In this document: one piece after another, positions 3,067-27,300 of the stretch
Position numbering within the stretch: the stretch's first letter is position 1
How the letters are laid out: each line of letters opens with the position of its first letter
Assembly (NCBI GenBank): GCA_035510155.1
Contig: DATKHR010000088.1
Location: 7,846-71,845 of the forward strand
DNA from: Vicinamibacterales bacterium
GTDB lineage: Bacteria; Acidobacteriota; Vicinamibacteria; Vicinamibacterales; CAVVIG01
Reading direction: 5' to 3'
DNA: 64,000 nt
Translations under genes and position numbers: made by a program
Notes under the pieces: generated by a model
What the model was told of the DNA's origin: nothing
The model's database searches: none
What the model saw: only the letters and a program-made list of their open reading frames with translations

Positions 3067-4713
3067 TCAGCCGGAAGAAGTCCTGAAAAGACTGATCGCC
3101 ATCCCCACGAGCACAACGACGACCGCGCCGATCACGTTGTGCCACAGGAACGCGATCGGGAGCGTCCAGGCCACGGTCAGCACGACCGCCACGCCCGCAA
3201 AGAGACCCCAGAACGCCCCCGCCGCCGTGGCGCGCTTCGTCAAGATCGCGAGGATGAACACGCCGAGCAGGGAGCCATAGTAGAAGGACCCGTATCGGTT
3301 GACGACCTCGATCAACGATCCCTGGTTCGCGGCGTAAATCGCGACCACGCAGGCGAGGAGACCCCAGGCGACCGTCGCGAGCTTTGAGACGCGCAAATAG
3401 TGCGCGTCGGGCGCGTCGGGGACCCAGTGCCGCCGGTAGAAGTCGATGATGGTCGCGGTCGCGAGCGCATTGAGTTCGCCGCCGCTCGCCGACATCGCCG
3501 CGACGAAAATGGCCGCGACCATCAGGCCAACGAGACCCACCGGCATCCGCGTGGTGATGAACGTCGGAAATACATAGTTGACATCGGTGTACCGCTGGTC
3601 GCCCGTCGCTTGCTGCACGATGCCCACGGCGCGGTCCCGAATGTCCTTGACGCGCGCATCGCTCGCGAGAAACGCGCGGCGGTCGTGGCGGGCGGCCGCT
3701 TCCCGCCGTGCCGCGAATTCGCGGTCGAAGTCCTGCTGCAACCGGACGTATTCGGCAGCGCGGGGGCTCGCGGCGATCTCGGCGTCGTACGCGCGGTTGA
3801 AGAGCATCGGCGGCGTCTGAAAGAGATAGAAGACGAACACCAGCACGCCGGTCACCAGGATGAGAAGCTGCAGCGGAATCTTGACGTACGCGCTCATCAG
3901 CAGCGACTGACGCGCCTCGCCGATCGACTTCGCCGTCAGATAGCGCTGCACCTGGCTCTGATCGCACCCGAAATACGCCAGCATCAGAAAGAGGCCGCCG
4001 ATCATCCCTGACCAGAACGTGTAGGTTTCTTTCGGATCGAATGTGAAGTCGACCGCTTTCAACCGGTCCGTCGCGCCGGCGAGCTCCAGGGCCTGGCCGA
4101 CCGTGACATGCTGCAGGATCCCGTGAAGGAGAATCGCTACGGCGGCCACCATGCCGCCCACCACGAAAAACATCTGCTTGACATCCGTCCACGCGACCGC
4201 CTGTACGCCGCCGATTGTCGTGTAAACGATCATCGGCACGCAGATCACCAGCACGGTGACCGGCAGCCTCCAGCCGAGAATCGCGGACATCACGACGGCT
4301 GGCGCCGCGAGCGTGACGCCGAGCGAGGCGGCGCGCCCCATCAGAAAAATGAAGCTGGTGAGCGACCGCGTCCGCGCGTCGAACCGGCGCTCGAGGTACT
4401 CGTATGCCGTGTAAACCTGAGCGCGTGTGAAGAACGGCACCACGGTCACCGACAACAGGATCATTGCGAGCGGCAGGCCGAAGTAGAACTGAACGAACCG
4501 CAGCCCGGTGAGATACCCTTGCCCCGTGGTGGCGACCAGCGTGACGGCGCTCATCTGCGTCGCCATCACGGACAATCCAACGGCCCACCACGGCAGCGAG
4601 CGGTTCGCCAGGAAATATCCGTCGACCCGGTCGGTACCCTTCGACCGGCGTAGCCCATCGACGACAATCCAGCCGATATACGCGGCGACGACGAACCAGT
4701 CGAGGGTCGTCAC
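3067..4713 (-). CDS. Sodium:solute symporter (SSS) family transporter
   Basis: 548-aa polytopic ORF with a GTG start. SSS-type N-terminus (DWFVVAAYIGWIVVDGLRRSKG...YFLANRSLPWWAVGLSVMATQMSAVT) and 13-15 predicted helices. Confidence 0.85.
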   Translation of the reverse strand: MTTLDWFVVAAYIGWIVVDGLRRSKGTDRVDGYFLANRSLPWWAVGLSVMATQMSAVTLVATTGQGYLTGLRFVQFYFGLPLAMILLSVTVVPFFTRAQVYTAYEYLERRFDARTRSLTSFIFLMGRAASLGVTLAAPAVVMSAILGWRLPVTVLVICVPMIVYTTIGGVQAVAWTDVKQMFFVVGGMVAAVAILLHGILQHVTVGQALELAGATDRLKAVDFTFDPKETYTFWSGMIGGLFLMLAYFGCDQSQVQRYLTAKSIGEARQSLLMSAYVKIPLQLLILVTGVLVFVFYLFQTPPMLFNRAYDAEIAASPRAAEYVRLQQDFDREFAARREAAARHDRRAFLASDARVKDIRDRAVGIVQQATGDQRYTDVNYVFPTFITTRMPVGLVGLMVAAIFVAAMSASGGELNALATATIIDFYRRHWVPDAPDAHYLRVSKLATVAWGLLACVVAIYAANQGSLIEVVNRYGSFYYGSLLGVFILAILTKRATAAGAFWGLFAGVAVVLTVAWTLPIAFLWHNVIGAVVVVLVGMAISLFRTSSG

Positions 4714-4793
4714 GAAAACAGCTGCCCGAAAGCCCAGAGGACCGCGATAATCACCGCTTCGAGAACGAGCACCCTGAGATAGGTCGACGCCAT
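4710..4793 (-). CDS. Candidate 27-aa single-TM leader/small membrane peptide, translationally coupled to the symporter
   Basis: ATG at 4793-4791 is preceded by GGGGGT. The translation is MASTYLRVLVLEAVIIAVLWAFGQLFS*. Its TGA overlaps the GTG start of the symporter (GTGA at 4713-4710). It is too short for the ORF track. Confidence 0.35.
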   Translation of the reverse strand: MASTYLRVLVLEAVIIAVLWAFGQLFS

Positions 4794-4858
4794 CAACCCC
4801 CGGCCGTCATCTACGCGCCATCAGGCACGTGCCATCAGCCACTCGCCATCAACCGTCA
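4789..4858 (-). repeat. Five-unit, exactly 14-nt periodic array of TGATGGC (one unit TGACGGC) in the leader of the symporter
   Basis: The plus-strand motif gccatca occurs at 4789, 4817, 4831 and 4845, with gccgtca at 4803. On the minus strand every unit provides a TGA/ATG overlap (see findings). Confidence 0.8.
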
Positions 4859-4864
4859 CAGGTT

Positions 4865-6328
4865 TCACAACTGCGCGCTCCGTTCGCGAAGGCGTCGCTC
4901 TGCGTCGGCCAGCGCTCGCGTCGCGCTCTGCCACCATGCCTCGTCGGCGGCGAGCTGCAACCGTGAGGCTTCCGCAGCCCGCGCGGTTTCGCTGGGTGCG
5001 GGCCCGCCGAGTGTCATCCGGACTTCGACGAAGTGCCGCGGACTGAGAATCTCCTCCAACGCTCGCTCCGAGTACGACACCGGCTCGCCGGCAAGATCCC
5101 GCGACGCGGCCGCGAGCAGATCGGCCAGCGGGCGCGCCCGATCGTGCTGGCGTCCCGTGATCAATCGCGCCGCAATCGCATGGGCCGTCCTGAACGGCAT
5201 ACGGTGATCCCGCACGAGTGTGTCCGCCAGCTCGGTCAGCGTCGTCCAACCATCGGCCGCGCGAGCCTCAAGCCTGGCCGCATCGAATTCAGCCGTTGCC
5301 ATTGCCGCCGCCACGAGCTTCACCGCACGCGTCGCGTCGCGAAAAGTCGCGAAGACGAGCGGCTGGAGATCGTCCTCGGTATCGACGATGTCGCCGAACG
5401 GCGTGTTGTGCACGCAGGCCACGATCCCCTGCGCCTGCCCCAGCGCCTTGCTGCCGATCGCGCGGGCGTGCTCGAAGGCGACCGGGTTTCTCTTCTGCGG
5501 CATGATGCTGCTCGTCTGCACGAAGCCATCGCCCAGCCGGACATAGTTGAATTCGGCCGTGCACCAGAGCAGCAGGTCCTGAAGGAACCGGCCCAATCCG
5601 ACGAGCAGCACCGACGCAGCGGACGTCGATTCCAAGAGGTAGTCAACCGTCGCGATGCTCCCGTACGTATTCCCCGTCGGCCCGCAAAAACCGAGCAGAT
5701 CGGATGTCAACTGTCGGTCGATCGGAAAGCCGGTCCCGGTGATGGCGCACGAGCCCAATGGGTTGCGGTTCGTACGGTCGTACGCGCTCTTCAGCCGCGC
5801 TCCGTCGCGTTCGGCCTGCTCGATGACCGCAAGCAAGTAGTGCGCAACGGTCGTCGGTTGGGCCCGCTGCGTATGGGTATGGACCGCGAGCACGGTCTCG
5901 CGGTGCCGATCGACCACGTCCAGGAGCGATCGGCGCAGATCGAAGGTCGCCGCGATCAGCCCGAGGATCAAATCGCGCTGCCGCATCCGGTACATCGTCA
6001 TATCGATGTCGTTGCGCGATCGTGCAGTGTGCAGCCGGCCGGCCACGTCCTCGTTTCCTGGACCGCAGGCTTGGACGAGCAGGCGCTCGACATAGAAGAA
6101 CAGATCCTCGTAGGTCCCGTCGTACGTCACGCGTTGGACGTCGTCTCGCGAAATGGAATCGAGCGCGTCGCGAACCCGCCTGCCATCGGCGCGCGGGACA
6201 ATGCCCTGCTCCACGAGCATGACGAGGTGGGCGTAGTTGATCGCGATGAGCGGCGCGAGAAAGAGCTCTTTGGCGTCCTCGAAGTTCTCGTTGAGAACGC
6301 ACGCGACGTATTCCGGGGCGAATTTCAT
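4865..6328 (-). CDS. Argininosuccinate lyase / fumarate-lyase superfamily protein (ArgH paralogue)
   Basis: 487-aa ORF with the lyase_1 signature SSIMPQKRNPVAFEHARA plus TARSRNDIDMT and HTHTQRAQPTT motifs. It lacks the usual ArgH N-terminal WGGRF segment. Confidence 0.8.
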   Translation of the reverse strand: MKFAPEYVACVLNENFEDAKELFLAPLIAINYAHLVMLVEQGIVPRADGRRVRDALDSISRDDVQRVTYDGTYEDLFFYVERLLVQACGPGNEDVAGRLHTARSRNDIDMTMYRMRQRDLILGLIAATFDLRRSLLDVVDRHRETVLAVHTHTQRAQPTTVAHYLLAVIEQAERDGARLKSAYDRTNRNPLGSCAITGTGFPIDRQLTSDLLGFCGPTGNTYGSIATVDYLLESTSAASVLLVGLGRFLQDLLLWCTAEFNYVRLGDGFVQTSSIMPQKRNPVAFEHARAIGSKALGQAQGIVACVHNTPFGDIVDTEDDLQPLVFATFRDATRAVKLVAAAMATAEFDAARLEARAADGWTTLTELADTLVRDHRMPFRTAHAIAARLITGRQHDRARPLADLLAAASRDLAGEPVSYSERALEEILSPRHFVEVRMTLGGPAPSETARAAEASRLQLAADEAWWQSATRALADAERRLRERSAQL

Positions 6329-24325: not shown

Positions 24326-27300
24326 AACACAGCGTGATGCGGGATGCGGGATGCGGGATTCGTCATGCAATGGACTGCGTGTCCCACGAATCCCACATCC
24401 CGAATCCCGCATCACGTCCCTTCTGGCGAACGCTCGAAGAACGCGCAAACGATCCGGCCTTCCAGGAGCGCCTCTTTAACGAGTTCCCCTCGGAGATCGA
24501 AGCGATTACGGACCCGATCCAGCGCCGGACTTTTCTGAAGCTGATGTCCGCGTCAATGGCCCTGGCGGGCGTCACCGCCTGCACCCGTCAGCCTGTCGAA
24601 AAGATCGTTCCTTACGTCCGCCAGCCCGAAGAGCTGATTCCAGGACGTCCGCTGTACTTCGCCACAGCGATGGCCGTGGGCGGCGTCGCCACAGGACTGG
24701 TCGTCGAAAGCCACGAAGGCCGGCCGACAAAGATCGAAGGCAACGCCCTCCACCCAGGCAGCCTCGGCGCGGCTGACGTCTTCTCCCAAGCCGCGATCCT
24801 CGGTCTCTATGACCCCGATCGGTCGATGACGCTCACCAATCTTGGCGAGATTCGGCCCTGGTCGGTATTCCTCGGCGCGATTCGCGCTGCCCTCACCGTG
24901 CAGCAAGCGCTGAAAGGCGCCGGCCTCCGCATCCTCACGGAATCCGTGAGCTCGCCAACACTCGCCGCCCAAATCCGCGACATCCTCTCGCGCTACCCGG
25001 AAGCGAAATGGCACCAATGGGATCCCGCCAGCCGCGACAACGCTCGCGCCGGCTCGCAACTGGCCTTCGGCCAATACGTCGACGCCCAATACAAGCTGGA
25101 GAACGCTGACGTCATTCTGGCGCTCGACGCAGACTTCCTTTCCTGCGGGCCAGGCAGCCTCCGCTACGCCCGCGACTTCGCCGCACGTCGTCGTCCCGAA
25201 AACGCCGCGCGCATGAATCGACTCTACACCGTGGAGACGATGCCGACGTCGACCGGCTCGCGCGCCGATCACAGATTACCGCTCAAGCCAAGTCTTGTCG
25301 GCGCCGTCGCTCGGCAAATCGCGGCAGCCGTCGCGCCAGGCGTCGAGCACCGTGGCGGAGCAGGGGCAGGCGGCCGTGCGGCCCCACAGGATCCACGCGC
25401 CGGCATCAGGGTGAGCGCGGCCGCACAGAAGTTTGTCGACACCGTCTCGAAAGATCTTCTGGCCCACCGCGGCCGGAGCCTCGTGATCGCGGGGGACACC
25501 CAGCCGGCGTACGTCCACGCTCTCGCGCACGCCATGAACCAGACCCTCGCCAACGTAGGCCAAACAGTCATCTTTACCCAGACGGTAGAAGCCGAACCGA
25601 TCGATCAGATCGCGTCTCTCCGTGACCTTGTCACCGAGATGAGCGGAGGCAAGGTCGATCTGCTGGTCATTCTGTCGGGGAACCCTGTCTATACCGCGCC
25701 CGCAGATCTCCGATTCGATGAAGCCCTTTCAAAGGTCCCGTTGAGAGTGCGGCTCGGTCTCTACGAGGACGAGACGTCGGCGCTCTGCCACTGGCAGATC
25801 CCGGAAGCGCACTTCCTCGAGGCATGGAGCGACGCCCGCGGATTCGACGGTACGGCGTCCATCGTCCAGCCGCTCATCGCCCCGCTCTACAACGGCAAGT
25901 CGGCGCACGAGGTGCTCGCCGCCATGACCGACCGCCCCGAGCGGTCCGCCTACGACATCATCCGCGAGCAGTGGAAGATCCGGGGGGGAGGGACACCCGG
26001 AACGGACAATCCCCCCGGCGGCGACGACGACTGGCAACGATGGCTCCACGACGGCGTGATTCCGAACACCGCCTTCACGCCAAAAGCCGTCACGATCGCA
26101 TCCCCCCTCGAATCCGGAATCGAATCCGCGGCCCAATCCGCTACCCAATCCGCAGTCCGCGATCCGCAATCCGGGATCCCCAATCCGCAATCCGGAATCG
26201 AGGTGTCTTTCCACCTCGACCCCTCCGTGCTCGACGGCCGATTCGCCAACAACGGCTGGCTGCAGGAGCTGCCCAAGCCGGTCACCAAGCTGACGTGGGA
26301 CAACGCGATCTTCGTCAGCCCTGCCACCGCGGCGCGCCTCAGCGCCACGAACACGCCAGCCTATCGCGGCGGAGAGCACGGCACGATCATGAGCGACGTC
26401 TTCGAGCTTCGATCGGCGGGACGCGCTGTTCGTGGCCCGATGTTCGCGGTTGCAGGCCACCCCGACGAGTGCGCCACGGTGCATCTCGGCTACGGGCGCG
26501 CCCGTGGCGGCCATGCGGCGAAAGGCGCTGGATTCGACGCCACCGCCATTCGCCGTTCTGACGCGTTTTGGTTCGCGCCCGCCGAACTGGTCAAAACGCG
26601 CGACACCTATCCGCTCGCATGCACGCAGTATCACCATCTCATGGAAGGCCGCGACATCATCCGCGCGGTCACGCGCGACGAATATCTACGGAACCCGAAG
26701 AGCATGAGCGAGGGACCCGGCAAAGAGGAACCACCGTCGCGGGCGATCACGCTCTATCCCGAGCACGAGTACACAGGTTACAAGTGGGGCATGGCTATCG
26801 ATGTCAACGCCTGCATCGGCTGCAACGCCTGCGTTGTCGGCTGCCAGGCCGAGAACAACATCGCGATTGTCGGCAAGGATCAAGTCCTTCGCGGGCGAGA
26901 AATGCACTGGATCCGCATCGATACGTACTATCGCGGCAATGTCGAGGAGCCGGAGACCTACTTCCAACCCGTGCCGTGCATGCAGTGCGAGAACGCCCCG
27001 TGCGAGCCCGTCTGCCCCGTAGGCGCGACCGTGCATAGTGACGAGGGGCTGAACGACATGGTGTACAACCGCTGCGTCGGCACGCGGTACTGCTCGAACA
27101 ACTGCCCCTACAAGGTCCGCCGCTTCAACTATTTCTTGTACCAGGACTGGAACACGCCCAGCCTCAAGCTGCAGCGCAACCCGGACGTCAGCGTCCGCAG
27201 CCGAGGAGTGATGGAGAAGTGCACGTACTGCGTTCAGCGCATCAACGAAGCGAAGATTCGGGCTGAGAAGGAAGGCCGCAGGGTCCGGGACGGCGATATC

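What the first reader, a model, noticed from the sequence alone, without database searches (positions are those of the whole stretch)
4710..4864. Exactly 14-nt periodic TGATGGC array builds a relay of stop/start-overlapped mini-ORFs leading into a Na+/solute symporter
The array lies on the minus strand between the ArgH-like stop (4865) and the symporter. The leader reads ...ggtTGATGGCgagtggcTGATGGCacgtgccTGATGGCgcgtagaTGACGGCcgggggtTGATGGCgtcgacc... . The motif recurs at plus coordinates 4845, 4831, 4817, 4803 and 4789, a period of exactly 14 nt. Every unit supplies both a stop and the next ATG. This gives ATG GCG AGT GGC TGA (MASG), then ATG GCA CGT GCC TGA (MARA), then ATG GCG CGT AGA TGA (MARR). 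Next comes ATG ACG GCC GGG GGT TGA (MTAGG), linked by an ATGA overlap. The last ATG opens a 27-codon hydrophobic ORF (MASTYLRVLVLEAVIIAVLWAFGQLFS) whose TGA overlaps the GTG start of the symporter. So there are four consecutive 4-5 codon uORFs, then a small TM peptide, all coupled by 1- or 4-nt overlaps. I know of no described leader of this form. It could be a termination-reinitiation relay, a binding array for an RNA- or DNA-binding regulator, or simply a slipped-strand tandem duplication of the original start region.
Basis: seen in the sequence. Interest (0 to 1): 0.6.

Follow-up and report, generated by a model that had tools for sequence, protein, structure and literature searches.

The report
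Seven-base repeat array at gene junction
The 14-base TGATGGC array is real, but it is one local copy of a seven-base repeat family that litters gene junctions in this soil Acidobacteria lineage; the chain of tiny stop/start-linked reading frames follows automatically from the repeat's sequence and spacing, so nothing here shows a purpose-built leader.

Summary
Window 4789-4851 (minus strand) holds TGATGGC four times and TGACGGC once, at exactly 14-nt steps, far above chance. The array lies between an ArgH-like lyase gene and a 27-codon hydrophobic ORF. That ORF's stop overlaps the GTG of an SSF symporter.

The array is really ten 7-nt units in one phase (4858-4789). It belongs to a genome-wide NNATGGC heptamer repeat family:
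- 38 two-unit hits in this Vicinamibacterales genome against 0-1 for the control.
- 25 phased arrays, mostly just after stop codons.
- The family occurs in 27 of 118 genomes of the taxonomic family.

The array is missing from all three same-genus orthologous loci. The commonest state elsewhere is a direct GTGA/ATGA stop/start overlap. Relatives carry other heptamer arrays in the same spacers. Fourteen near-identical assemblies (this window plus 13 contigs from other samples) share the array. One divergent allele rearranges it and removes the four-uORF pattern.

Any TGATG motif at period 7 or 14 gives ATG, three codons, then TGA, so the relay is arithmetic. The last unit does supply the small ORF's ATG.

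The 27-aa ORF is a real, conserved, unannotated small membrane-protein gene.

Verdict: a new member of a known kind (heptameric simple-sequence repeats). A coupling role is not excluded (about 15%).

The parts
4865..6328 (-). ArgH-like (fumarate-lyase superfamily) gene; stop TGA at 4867-4865
   Evidence: Pfam Lyase_1 plus ASL_C2; TIGR00838 argH scores 313 bits (cutoff 279.5). The C-terminus ...ERSAQL* aligns with relatives' ...ERSAAL*.
4789..4858 (-). Heptamer repeat block of ten 7-nt units in one phase: TGACGGT TGATGGC GAGTGGC TGATGGC ACGTGCC TGATGGC GCGTAGA TGACGGC CGGGGGT TGATGGC.
   Evidence: It belongs to the NNATGGC heptamer family of this genome and of related genomes.
4821..4868 (-). 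15-codon frame VKPVTVDGEWLMARA*. It starts at a GTG overlapping the ArgH-like stop (GTGA) and ends on the TGA of the third TGATGGC. It is in the same frame as the small ORF.
   Evidence: In 9 of 10 further population contigs and in L139 the GTG is ATG (an ATGA overlap). Translation is not shown.
4835..4849 (-). Formal mini-ORF 1: ATG GCG AGT GGC TGA (MASG*)
   Evidence: It is a by-product of TGATG at a 14-nt period.
4821..4835 (-). Formal mini-ORF 2: ATG GCA CGT GCC TGA (MARA*)
4807..4821 (-). Formal mini-ORF 3: ATG GCG CGT AGA TGA (MARR*)
4793..4810 (-). Formal mini-ORF 4: ATG ACG GCC GGG GGT TGA (MTAGG*). It has an ATGA overlap with mini-ORF 3 and a TGATG overlap with the small ORF.
4710..4793 (-). 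Conserved small membrane-protein gene (27 aa, MASTYLRVLVLEAVIIAVLWAFGQLFS). Its ATG (4793-4791) is supplied by the last repeat unit, and its TGA overlaps the symporter GTG.
   Evidence: The core Y-V-x-V-L-V-L-E-A-A-I-I-A-A-L-W-x-F-G-R-x-F-S* was found upstream of the symporter in 112 of 151 loci. Entropy by codon position is 0.94/0.47/1.21. The exact sequence is called as an unnamed gene on 82 JGI contigs. There is no Pfam or NCBIfam hit.
3067..4713 (-). Sodium:solute symporter family (SSF/SSS) transporter gene with a GTG start
   Evidence: PF00474; TIGR00813 scores 256 bits (cutoff 184). Orthologues occur in 38 of 41 related genomes.

Best explanation
The array is a local copy of a heptameric simple-sequence repeat family (unit NNATGGC, mostly TGATGGC or TCATGGC). 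This family colonises gene junctions in this Vicinamibacterales (Acidobacteriota subdivision 6) genome and in part of its taxonomic family.

Origin (inferred). It expanded, most likely by replication slippage in 7-nt and 14-nt steps, at the spot where the ArgH-like stop codon originally overlapped the start codon of a conserved small membrane-protein gene (ancestral ...CTGTGACG..., a GTGA overlap). The expansion pushed the two genes about 70 nt apart. It was tolerated because the last unit recreates an in-frame ATG for the small gene (M-A-S-T-Y in place of M/V-T-S-T-Y).

The mini-ORFs. Each unit contains TGATG, and 7 and 14 are not multiples of three. Stops and starts therefore fall in all three frames, and every ATG is automatically followed by three codons and the TGA of the unit 14 nt downstream. 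The 'relay' of mini-ORFs is this arithmetic by-product.

Shown: the array, its family membership, its absence from orthologous loci, its rearrangement in a divergent allele, and the coding nature of the small ORF.

Inferred: slippage as the mechanism, the operon structure, and the lack of a dedicated regulatory role.
For: 1. Genome-wide family. TGATGGC-N7-TGATGGC with up to 1 mismatch gives 38 hits in the 5.5-Mb genome, against 0-1 for the reversed control, and most hits are contiguous 7-nt tandems. There are 25 arrays of at least 3 phased ATGGC, against 0-5 for control pentamers. Another array (C209) shares a 21-nt string with ours, including the 'spacer' GAGTGGC.
2. Lineage-wide but patchy. 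27 of 118 family genomes carry the three-unit pattern, with up to 139 hits per genome and controls near 0.
3. Typical position. Arrays begin within about 0-25 nt after the stop codon of a gene, in this genome and in relatives. Intergenic period-7/14 arrays lie a median 12 nt from a gene boundary, by crude gene calls.
4. Not conserved. The array is absent from the three same-genus orthologous loci. Of 83 loci with the ArgH-like gene upstream, the commonest single state (19 distinct sequences) is a direct stop/start overlap. The longer spacers are often other heptamer arrays that start at the stop codon.
5. The spacers attract heptamers generally. Of 101 TRF hits in the two spacers around the small ORF in 112 loci, 41 have period 7, 12 period 14, 3 period 21 and 2 period 28, with different units per lineage. 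L200 independently carries (NNATGGC)6 starting at the ArgH-like TAA.
6. Divergent allele L219. It shows 1 difference in 784 nt of small ORF plus symporter, but 21 in the 71 nt of spacer plus array. Its first four units are contiguous heptamers, the third 14-spaced TGATGGC is gone, and the four-uORF pattern is replaced.
7. Arithmetic. The ATG of a TGATG unit is in frame with the TGA of unit i+2 at period 7 and of unit i+1 at period 14.
8. No sign of an RNA or transcription element. There is no Rfam match, the RNA fold z-score is -1.45, and no promoter-like or terminator-like site was found.
9. Literature. Heptameric SSRs are enriched in intergenic regions near the 5'-neighbouring ORF and vary between close relatives (PMC4692102). 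TAACTGA heptamer repeats lie just upstream of start codons (PMC4679880).
Against: 1. Uneven decay. The TGATGGC-phase units carry 1 mismatch in 35 positions. The alternate units carry 16 in 28 against TGATGGC (Fisher p = 1e-6), or 9 in 28 against their own consensus (p = 0.003). Uniform neutral decay of a 7-mer or 14-mer array does not predict this. With about 95 period-14 arrays in the genome, and a finding selected for looking regular, the second figure is not compelling. It is still unexplained.
2. Units 1 and 3 are identical in the divergent allele L219, while units 0 and 2 differ at 3 positions each.
3. In both alleles an unbroken chain of overlapping stops and starts links the ArgH-like stop to the small ORF start.
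4. The array shows no copy-number variation in this window plus 13 near-identical contigs from other samples, so it is not a hypermutable tract on that time scale.
Confidence: 0.7

Rival explanations
1. Exapted termination-reinitiation relay. The repeat separated two genes that were translationally coupled. Selection then kept every second TGATG unit, so ribosomes leaving the ArgH-like gene hop through overlapping stop/start pairs to the small ORF and then into the symporter. The route is GTGA, then a 15-codon frame, then TGATG, MARR, ATGA, MTAGG, TGATG; or the reader's route MASG, MARA, MARR, MTAGG. Coupling is preserved in an attenuated form.
For: The ancestral state is a direct GTGA/ATGA overlap, which implies coupling. 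The small ORF stop overlaps the symporter start here, and also (D-spacer -4 or -1) in many relatives. The units needed for the chain are intact while the alternate units have decayed. The one unit lacking an ATG is bridged by an ATGA. Both population alleles keep an unbroken overlapping chain, and the start overlapping the ArgH-like stop is GTG or ATG in all haplotypes. No internal promoter was detected.
Against: The chain follows automatically from TGATG at period 7 or 14. There is no conservation at orthologous loci in the same genus or family. The divergent allele replaces four mini-ORFs with one long uORF, so the specific architecture is not constrained. The conserved GC after TGATG is not needed for a relay. 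Five serial reinitiations would be inefficient (general knowledge of bacterial reinitiation). There are no expression data.
Confidence: 0.15
2. Binding-site array. The five TGATGGC units at 14-nt spacing are direct-repeat sites for a DNA-binding or RNA-binding regulator of the small ORF and symporter.
For: Exact heptamers alternate with variable 7-nt spacers. For a different heptamer (TAACTGA), binding of an RNA-binding protein has been proposed but not shown (PMC4679880).
Against: Elsewhere in the genome and in relatives the same unit occurs mostly as contiguous 7-nt tandems, directly after stop codons, in both orientations, and often paired with an inverted copy. It is not at fixed spacing in front of a gene set. 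The array is absent from orthologous loci. No promoter-like site was detected. A 14-bp spacing puts successive sites on different faces of the DNA helix (10.5 bp per turn, general knowledge).
Confidence: 0.06
3. Phase-variable contingency switch. Gain or loss of units changes which ATG is in frame with the small ORF, or changes spacing to a promoter, and so switches the symporter on and off within a population.
For: Simple-sequence repeats at gene starts act this way in host-adapted bacteria (background in PMC4692102). The divergent allele L219 changes the small ORF to a 42-aa form.
Against: This window and 13 near-identical contigs from other samples carry the same number of units, with no length variant. 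The units are imperfect, which suppresses slippage. The organism is a free-living soil bacterium in which the repeat type is found at hundreds of junctions.
Confidence: 0.04

Closest known systems
Heptameric simple-sequence repeats of bacteria: GGGAATC in Xanthomonas and GGGGA(C/T)T in Nostoc (Rehm et al. 2015, PMC4692102); the heptamer over-representation among long SSRs noted there from earlier surveys; STRR heptanucleotides of Calothrix cited in the same paper
   Same: The units are 7 nt. The same unit is present at many loci of one genome. The repeats are mostly intergenic and closer to the end of the 5'-neighbouring ORF than to the next gene. They often occur as inverted pairs. They show extensive length and sequence variation between related genomes. 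Their function is unknown.
   Different: The unit here (TGATGGC) is not G-rich and cannot form a G-quadruplex. This copy has decayed into a 14-nt pattern. It lies inside an operon at a former stop/start overlap and supplies the start codon of the downstream gene. The host is an acidobacterium, and none of my three searches that included 'Acidobacteria' found a paper describing such repeats in that phylum.
TAACTGA heptamer direct repeats of marine Beggiatoaceae, some Cyanobacteria and Bacteroidetes (MacGregor 2015, PMC4679880)
   Same: These are heptamer direct repeats in 'forward' orientation within a few nucleotides upstream of start codons. They carry stop codons, so they close all three frames. 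They lie in regions without a canonical ribosome-binding site. A translational role has been proposed but not demonstrated.
   Different: The unit is different and contains no ATG, so it makes no stop/start overlaps. Those repeats are perfect contiguous copies (2-6 per set). Here most family members sit after stop codons, not in front of starts.
Translational coupling by overlapping stop/start codons (ATGA, TGATG) in bacterial operons
   Same: Each junction in the chain is one of the two classic overlap types. The ancestral ArgH-like/small-ORF junction and the present small-ORF/symporter junction are ordinary examples (GTGA).
   Different: A series of four or five such overlaps across 4-5-codon frames is not a described coupling device. 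Here it is generated by a repeat, not conserved.
Small accessory subunits of SSS-family transporters (DUF4212/TIGR03647 with VC_2705-type symporters; YjcH/DUF485 with ActP; YhdT/DUF997 with PanF). Recalled from memory, not tested beyond the Pfam/NCBIfam scans.
   Same: A short hydrophobic protein is encoded immediately upstream of, and translationally coupled to, a sodium:solute symporter.
   Different: The 27-aa protein matches none of these families and is far shorter. An interaction with the transporter is only inferred from the conserved adjacency.

Membership tests
Heptameric simple-sequence repeat (long SSR) family | Head-to-tail units of 7 nt | tested here: met
   Ten units lie in one 7-nt phase over 4858-4789. 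Six are TGATGGC, TGACGGC or TGACGGT, and four are decayed. TRF reports period 14 because of the alternation. The divergent allele L219 has four contiguous canonical units.
Heptameric simple-sequence repeat (long SSR) family | The same unit occurs as tandem arrays at many loci of the genome | tested here: met
   38 two-unit hits against 0-1 for the control. 25 phased arrays against 0-5 for control pentamers. 27 of 118 related genomes carry the pattern.
Heptameric simple-sequence repeat (long SSR) family | Intergenic location close to the end of the upstream ORF | tested here: met
   The block starts 6 nt after the ArgH-like stop (unit 0), and the first exact TGATGGC starts 13 nt after it. Family members are mostly 0-25 nt after a stop. 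The median distance to a gene boundary is 12 nt by crude gene calls.
Heptameric simple-sequence repeat (long SSR) family | Length and sequence turnover between related genomes | tested here: met
   The array is absent from same-genus orthologues. The spacers of relatives hold other heptamer units. Allele L219 differs at 21 of 71 positions. However, the array is identical in 13 near-identical contigs.
G-quadruplex-forming heptamer repeats (Rehm et al. 2015 subtype) | G-tracts in each unit able to form G4 | tested here: not met
   The unit TGATGGC has no run of three or more G. It is therefore not a member of that subtype.
Leader-peptide / uORF regulatory leader (attenuation or reinitiation) | uORFs conserved in position and frame at orthologous loci | tested here: not met
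   There is no array or mini-ORF chain in three same-genus loci or in about 100 further loci. The chain is rearranged in allele L219.
Leader-peptide / uORF regulatory leader (attenuation or reinitiation) | Alternative RNA structures or a terminator coupled to uORF translation | tested here: not met
   The fold z-score is -1.45. There is no terminator-like site and no Rfam family.
Leader-peptide / uORF regulatory leader (attenuation or reinitiation) | Ribosome occupancy of the uORFs and dependence of downstream expression on them | not testable with these tools
The organism is an uncultured MAG.
Regulator binding-site array (direct repeats or iterons) | The motif recurs at fixed spacing in front of a set of genes and is conserved at orthologous promoters | tested here: not met
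   Other copies are contiguous tandems after stop codons, in both orientations. The orthologous loci lack the array. No promoter-like site was found.
Known small subunits of SSS transporters (DUF4212, DUF485, DUF997) | Profile match of the small protein | tested here: not met
   There is no Pfam or NCBIfam hit for the 27-aa protein or for longer relatives, even at E up to 10.

The most novel reading that the evidence does not exclude
After a selfish or slippage-born heptamer repeat split a translationally coupled gene pair, selection kept only the TGATG units that lie 14 nt apart. This would turn the insert into a chain of overlapping stop/start codons that carries terminating ribosomes about 70 nt from the ArgH-like gene to the small membrane-protein gene and on into the symporter. 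It would be a natural multi-step reinitiation relay built from a microsatellite.
Probability: 0.15. Interest if true: 0.6.

Novelty: new member of a known kind. Interest (0 to 1): 0.25.

Why it matters
The finding documents, at one well-resolved locus, how a heptamer microsatellite can invade a stop/start overlap inside an operon and be tolerated because it carries its own stop and start codons. That helps to explain why such repeats pile up exactly at gene junctions in Vicinamibacterales.

It also warns annotators that chains of mini-ORFs in these genomes are by-products of the repeats.

Two side results may be more useful than the array itself:
- A widely conserved, unannotated 27-45-aa membrane peptide is translationally coupled to an SSS-family symporter across Acidobacteriota.
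- Heptamer arrays in this lineage tend to start on the stop codon of the upstream gene.

If the relay reading were true, it would be a new natural example of serial reinitiation. The present evidence does not favour it.

Tried and rejected
- Rfam scan of 4000-5600 at E up to 1: no match.
- RNA fold of the leader: z = -1.45, so no significant structure.
- Sigma-70 promoter and intrinsic terminator scans of 4400-5300: none found.
- Pfam and NCBIfam scans for the small ORF and longer homologues: nothing. In one search one of the six sequences (number 5) was a mistyped off-frame string and should be ignored. The only hit (DAG1, E = 0.19) is noise.
- Inverted partner array: I looked for a hairpin like those of many family members. 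No GCCAT array lies near this locus.
- Copy-number variation: none in this window plus 13 near-identical contigs. These are at least 99.4% identical, so they carry no information on constraint.
The 42-aa variant and the symporter were used instead.
- Literature searches for heptamer repeats in Acidobacteria returned nothing.
- Selenocysteine or readthrough at the in-frame TGA (4823-4821) that separates the GTG frame from the small ORF: rejected for lack of any supporting feature. No test was run.
Full report
**Observation.** TGATGGC lies at 4851-4845, 4837-4831, 4823-4817 and 4795-4789, and TGACGGC at 4809-4803, so the period is exactly 14. Tandem Repeats Finder reports one array, 4788-4851, with period 14, 4.6 copies and score 58. 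With up to two mismatches, the pattern TGATGGC-N7-TGATGGC has six hits in the 64-kb window, four of them here, against 0.63 expected.

The flanking genes are as described. An ArgH-like lyase lies at 4865-6328(-), with Lyase_1 plus ASL_C2 domains and a TIGR00838 score above cutoff. A sodium:solute symporter lies at 3067-4713(-), matching PF00474 and TIGR00813. The mini-ORFs MASG, MARA, MARR and MTAGG and the 27-codon ORF all appear in the three-frame translations. The small ORF's TGA overlaps the symporter's GTG.

I add two points. First, the repeat block is really ten heptamers in a single 7-nt phase (4858-4789): TGACGGT TGATGGC GAGTGGC TGATGGC ACGTGCC TGATGGC GCGTAGA TGACGGC CGGGGGT TGATGGC. 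The 'spacers' still resemble the unit (NNNTGGC). Second, a GTG overlapping the ArgH-like stop opens a 15-codon frame that ends on the third unit's TGA and lies in the frame of the small ORF.

**The organism and the locus.** Titles of the best-matching public contigs place the window in an uncultured Vicinamibacterales bacterium (Acidobacteriota subdivision 6). The symporter has orthologues in 38 of 41 related genomes.

A short ORF lies immediately upstream of the symporter in essentially every relative I inspected, across the order and in Pyrinomonadaceae and Gemmatimonadales contigs. Its core is Y-V-x-V-L-V-L-E-A-A-I-I-A-A-L-W-x-F-G-R-x-F-S-stop. A regular expression for the core found it in 112 of 151 loci. 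Across 94 distinct nucleotide versions the mean column entropy is 0.94, 0.47 and 1.21 for codon positions 1, 2 and 3, which is the signature of a protein-coding sequence. The exact 27-aa sequence is called as an unnamed gene on 82 JGI contigs. It matches no Pfam or NCBIfam family.

The hydrophobic ORF is therefore a real, conserved, unannotated small membrane-protein gene. Its stop often overlaps the symporter start: the spacer is -4 or -1 nt in many loci.

**The array is not conserved.** In the three same-genus genomes the junction between the ArgH-like gene and the small ORF has no such array:
- G004 has ...GCCCTGTGACGTCTACATAT..., so the stop TGA overlaps the small ORF's GTG.
- G003 has an 8-nt spacer.
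- G001 has a 41-nt spacer up to its first in-frame ATG, containing two AATGGCTG units 21 nt apart; the second supplies an M-A-G-T-Y start.

Among 83 loci with the ArgH-like gene upstream, the commonest single state (19 distinct sequences from many lineages) is the direct GTGA or ATGA overlap followed by T-x-T-Y. Our locus reads ...CAGTTGTGAAACCTGTGACGG[array]GTCGACCTATCTC.... The left edge keeps a CTGTGACG junction like G004's. The last unit plus its flank (GATGGCGTCGACCTATCTC) differs by one base from the start region of relatives such as L107 (GATGACGTCGACCTATCTC). The simplest reading is that a block of about 70 nt expanded at the ancestral stop/start overlap, and that the last unit now provides the ATG (M-A-S-T-Y in place of M/V-T-S-T-Y).

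**The unit belongs to a repeat family.**
- In the window's own genome (5.5 Mb, 65% G+C), TGATGGC-N7-TGATGGC with up to one mismatch occurs 38 times, against 0-1 for the reversed control. Most hits are contiguous heptamers such as TGATGGCTCATGGCTGATGGC.
- Requiring three or more ATGGC in phase at 7, 14 or 21 nt gives 25 arrays, against 0-5 for seven control pentamers.
- TRF on the whole genome shows several heptamer families (GCGGATT, CGGGATT, GGTCCTT, GATGGCT/CATGGCT, CGAGNNN). It also shows an excess of periods 7 and 14 over neighbouring periods that are not multiples of three.
- With crude GC3-based gene calls, 94 of 158 period-7/14 arrays are mostly intergenic, and these lie a median 12 nt from a gene boundary.
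- Members of the ATGGC family usually begin 0-25 nt after the stop codon of the upstream gene. They often have an inverted GCCAT array just downstream that could form a hairpin. Our copy has no inverted partner.
- Another array (contig C209) shares a 21-nt identical string with ours, including the 'spacer' GAGTGGC.
- Across the taxonomic family, 27 of 118 genomes carry the three-unit pattern, with up to 139 hits per genome and reversed-pattern controls near zero. Almost all of these hits are plain (TGATGGC)n. Some genera instead show many hits to the reversed control pattern.
- In 30 loci from those genomes, the arrays again mostly sit just after a stop codon in sense orientation.

**The two spacers around the small ORF attract heptamers generally.** In the 112 orthologous loci, TRF found 101 repeats in the spacers upstream and downstream of the small ORF. 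Of these, 41 have period 7, 12 period 14, 3 period 21 and 2 period 28. The units differ from lineage to lineage (GAACCCT, AGCCCTC, AGCCCCC, AAGTTAG, GGAATTA, CCTGATC and others). Many start on the stop codon itself (TGAACCC, TGAGCCC, TGATCCC, TAAGCCC).

L200 is an independent case of our family. There, TAATGGC TGATGGC TCATGGC TAATGGC ... TGATGGC begins at the TAA of the ArgH-like gene, and an inverted GCCAT array follows the small ORF. Several other loci carry GCCATNN arrays in the downstream spacer.

**Population data.** Three JGI metagenome contigs (L139-L141, at least 99.4% identical over 3-4 kb) carry the same five units with no length change. So do ten ENA contigs from different samples that encode the identical symporter. 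Ten of these 13 contigs (L139 and nine of the ten ENA contigs) differ from the window only at three positions just upstream of the array. One of those changes turns the overlapping GTGA into ATGA. The tract is therefore not hypermutable on that scale. The contigs are too similar to say anything about constraint.

A 42-aa variant of the small protein in the protein collection led to a divergent allele, L219. Compared with the window it has:
- 1 difference in 784 nt of small ORF plus symporter;
- 9 differences in the last 72 nt of the ArgH-like gene;
- 21 differences, including indels, in the 71 nt of spacer plus array.

Its array reads TCATGGC TGATGGC TTATGGC TGATGGC ATTCAGA GTCATGA CGC TGACGGC CGGGGGT TGATGGC. 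It has four contiguous canonical heptamers and no third 14-spaced unit. The reading-frame layout also differs: a 23-codon frame runs from an ATGA overlap with the ArgH-like stop to the TGATG at the small ORF, and there is an N-terminally extended 42-aa small ORF. This shows that the alternate 'spacers' are decayed heptamers and that the specific four-uORF architecture is not held constant.

**Why the relay is arithmetic.** In TGATG the ATG starts at offset 2. Its frame reaches offset 14 after four codons. That position is offset 0 of the next unit at period 14, or of the next-but-one unit at period 7, and so it is a TGA. Every (TGATGGC)n array in these genomes therefore encodes overlapping M-A-x-x-stop frames in all three phases. 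The bridging ATGA at the one imperfect unit needs only an A at one position. There is no Rfam match, no significant RNA structure (z = -1.45), and no promoter-like or terminator-like site in the leader.

**What remains unexplained.** The five units in the TGATGGC phase carry 1 mismatch in 35 positions. The four alternate units carry 16 in 28 against TGATGGC (p = 1e-6), or 9 in 28 against their own consensus GCGTGGC (p = 0.003). Units 1 and 3 are also identical in allele L219, while units 0 and 2 differ at three positions each. Uniform neutral decay does not predict this. A constraint with a 14-nt step, such as the relay, would.

Against giving this much weight:
- The finding was selected for its regularity.
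- The genome has about 95 period-14 arrays, so a p of 0.003 is expected somewhere by chance.
- The conserved GC after TGATG is not needed for a relay.
- Both alleles do keep an unbroken chain of overlapping stops and starts from the ArgH-like stop to the small ORF, but given the motif this is close to automatic.

I therefore keep the relay as a live minority reading (about 15%).

**Comparison with known systems.** The closest described class is the heptameric simple-sequence repeats. These are over-represented in intergenic regions of some bacteria, lie nearer to the end of the 5'-neighbouring ORF, and vary in length and sequence between close relatives (Rehm et al. 2015, PMC4692102). The unit here is not G-rich, so it does not belong to their G-quadruplex subtype.

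They are heptamer direct repeats with stop codons in forward orientation, lying within a few nucleotides of start codons. A translational role was proposed for them but never shown.

Earlier notes of this scan on the same genome and on other Vicinamibacterales reached the same classification for other junctions. I treated them as leads and re-derived the family evidence independently.

**Verdict.** The feature is a new member of a known kind, of modest interest. The conserved small membrane peptide, and the habit of heptamer arrays of starting on stop codons, are the more reusable observations.

Noticed in passing
window 4710-4793 (-); loci L029-L108 and L139-L218 upstream of the symporter match: A conserved, unannotated small membrane protein (27-45 aa, core YVxVLVLEAAIIAALWxFGRxFS) is encoded directly upstream of the SSF symporter and is often stop/start-overlapped with it. 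It occurs across Vicinamibacterales and in Pyrinomonadaceae and Gemmatimonadales contigs. It has no Pfam or NCBIfam family. Many lineages have an N-terminal extension with a conserved E-R-D-T-P-M-T motif.
   Followed up: partly
loci with the ArgH-like gene upstream: In 39 of 55 non-minimal junctions, the distance from the ArgH-like stop to the conserved Tyr codon keeps the stop-overlapping GTG/ATG in frame with the small ORF (binomial p = 1e-8, not corrected for phylogeny). This suggests that many lineages translate the spacer as an N-terminal extension of the small protein.
   Followed up: partly
L034, L043, L047, L051, L090, L009 (upstream of the small ORF): Where the ArgH-like gene is not the upstream neighbour, the small ORF's GTG is preceded at about 7-10 nt by a TATACT-like hexamer (...TATACTCCTCCCGTGAC...). 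This suggests a leaderless or very short-leader transcript.
   Followed up: no
L035, L037, L038, L043, L100, L107, L108, L154 and others: Heptamer arrays in relatives frequently begin exactly on the stop codon of the upstream gene (TGAACCC, TGAGCCC, TGATCCC, TAAGCCC, TGAATTAAG...), as if the stop codon plus four bases seeded the repeat. Sense-strand units in the spacer downstream of the small ORF are C-rich. Those upstream are more purine-rich.
   Followed up: partly
L200 and L043: Inverted heptamer arrays bracket the small ORF: ATGGCTG upstream with GCCATCA downstream in L200, and AGGTTCA with TGAACCT in L043. They could fold into a long hairpin enclosing the whole small gene.
   Followed up: no
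own genome, e.g. G000 C59:27476-27558, C122:32730-32832, C285:13002-13070, C290:4010-4090: Paired arrays of the ATGGC family are nearly always arranged 5'-(NNATGGC)n ... (GCCATNN)n-3'. In 12 cases the GCCAT copies are downstream and in 2 they are upstream; the mirror arrangement is rare.
   Followed up: no
genomes G066-G069: One genus shows many hits to the reversed control pattern (up to 12 forward and 11 reverse) and none to TGATGGC. Different genera appear to have amplified different heptamers.
   Followed up: no
window 4866-4868 and 4852-4864; L139, L220-L229: Three SNPs cluster in the 17 nt between the ArgH-like stop region and the first unit. The majority haplotype (L139 and 9 of 10 ENA contigs) has TTATGA (ATGA overlap), where the window has TTGTGA (GTGA overlap). 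A start codon overlapping the stop is kept in both.
   Followed up: partly
L141 versus window about 4143-4192: One near-identical metagenome contig lacks 48 nt inside the symporter gene relative to the window. This is either an in-frame deletion or an assembly difference.
   Followed up: no
window 24332-24413, 26134-26199, 1615-1666: The window holds other repeats. A GCGGGAT heptamer array with an inverted partner lies at 24332-24413. A CAATCCG array of 9.7 copies lies at 26134-26199. A 27-nt tandem duplication lies at 1615-1666.
   Followed up: no
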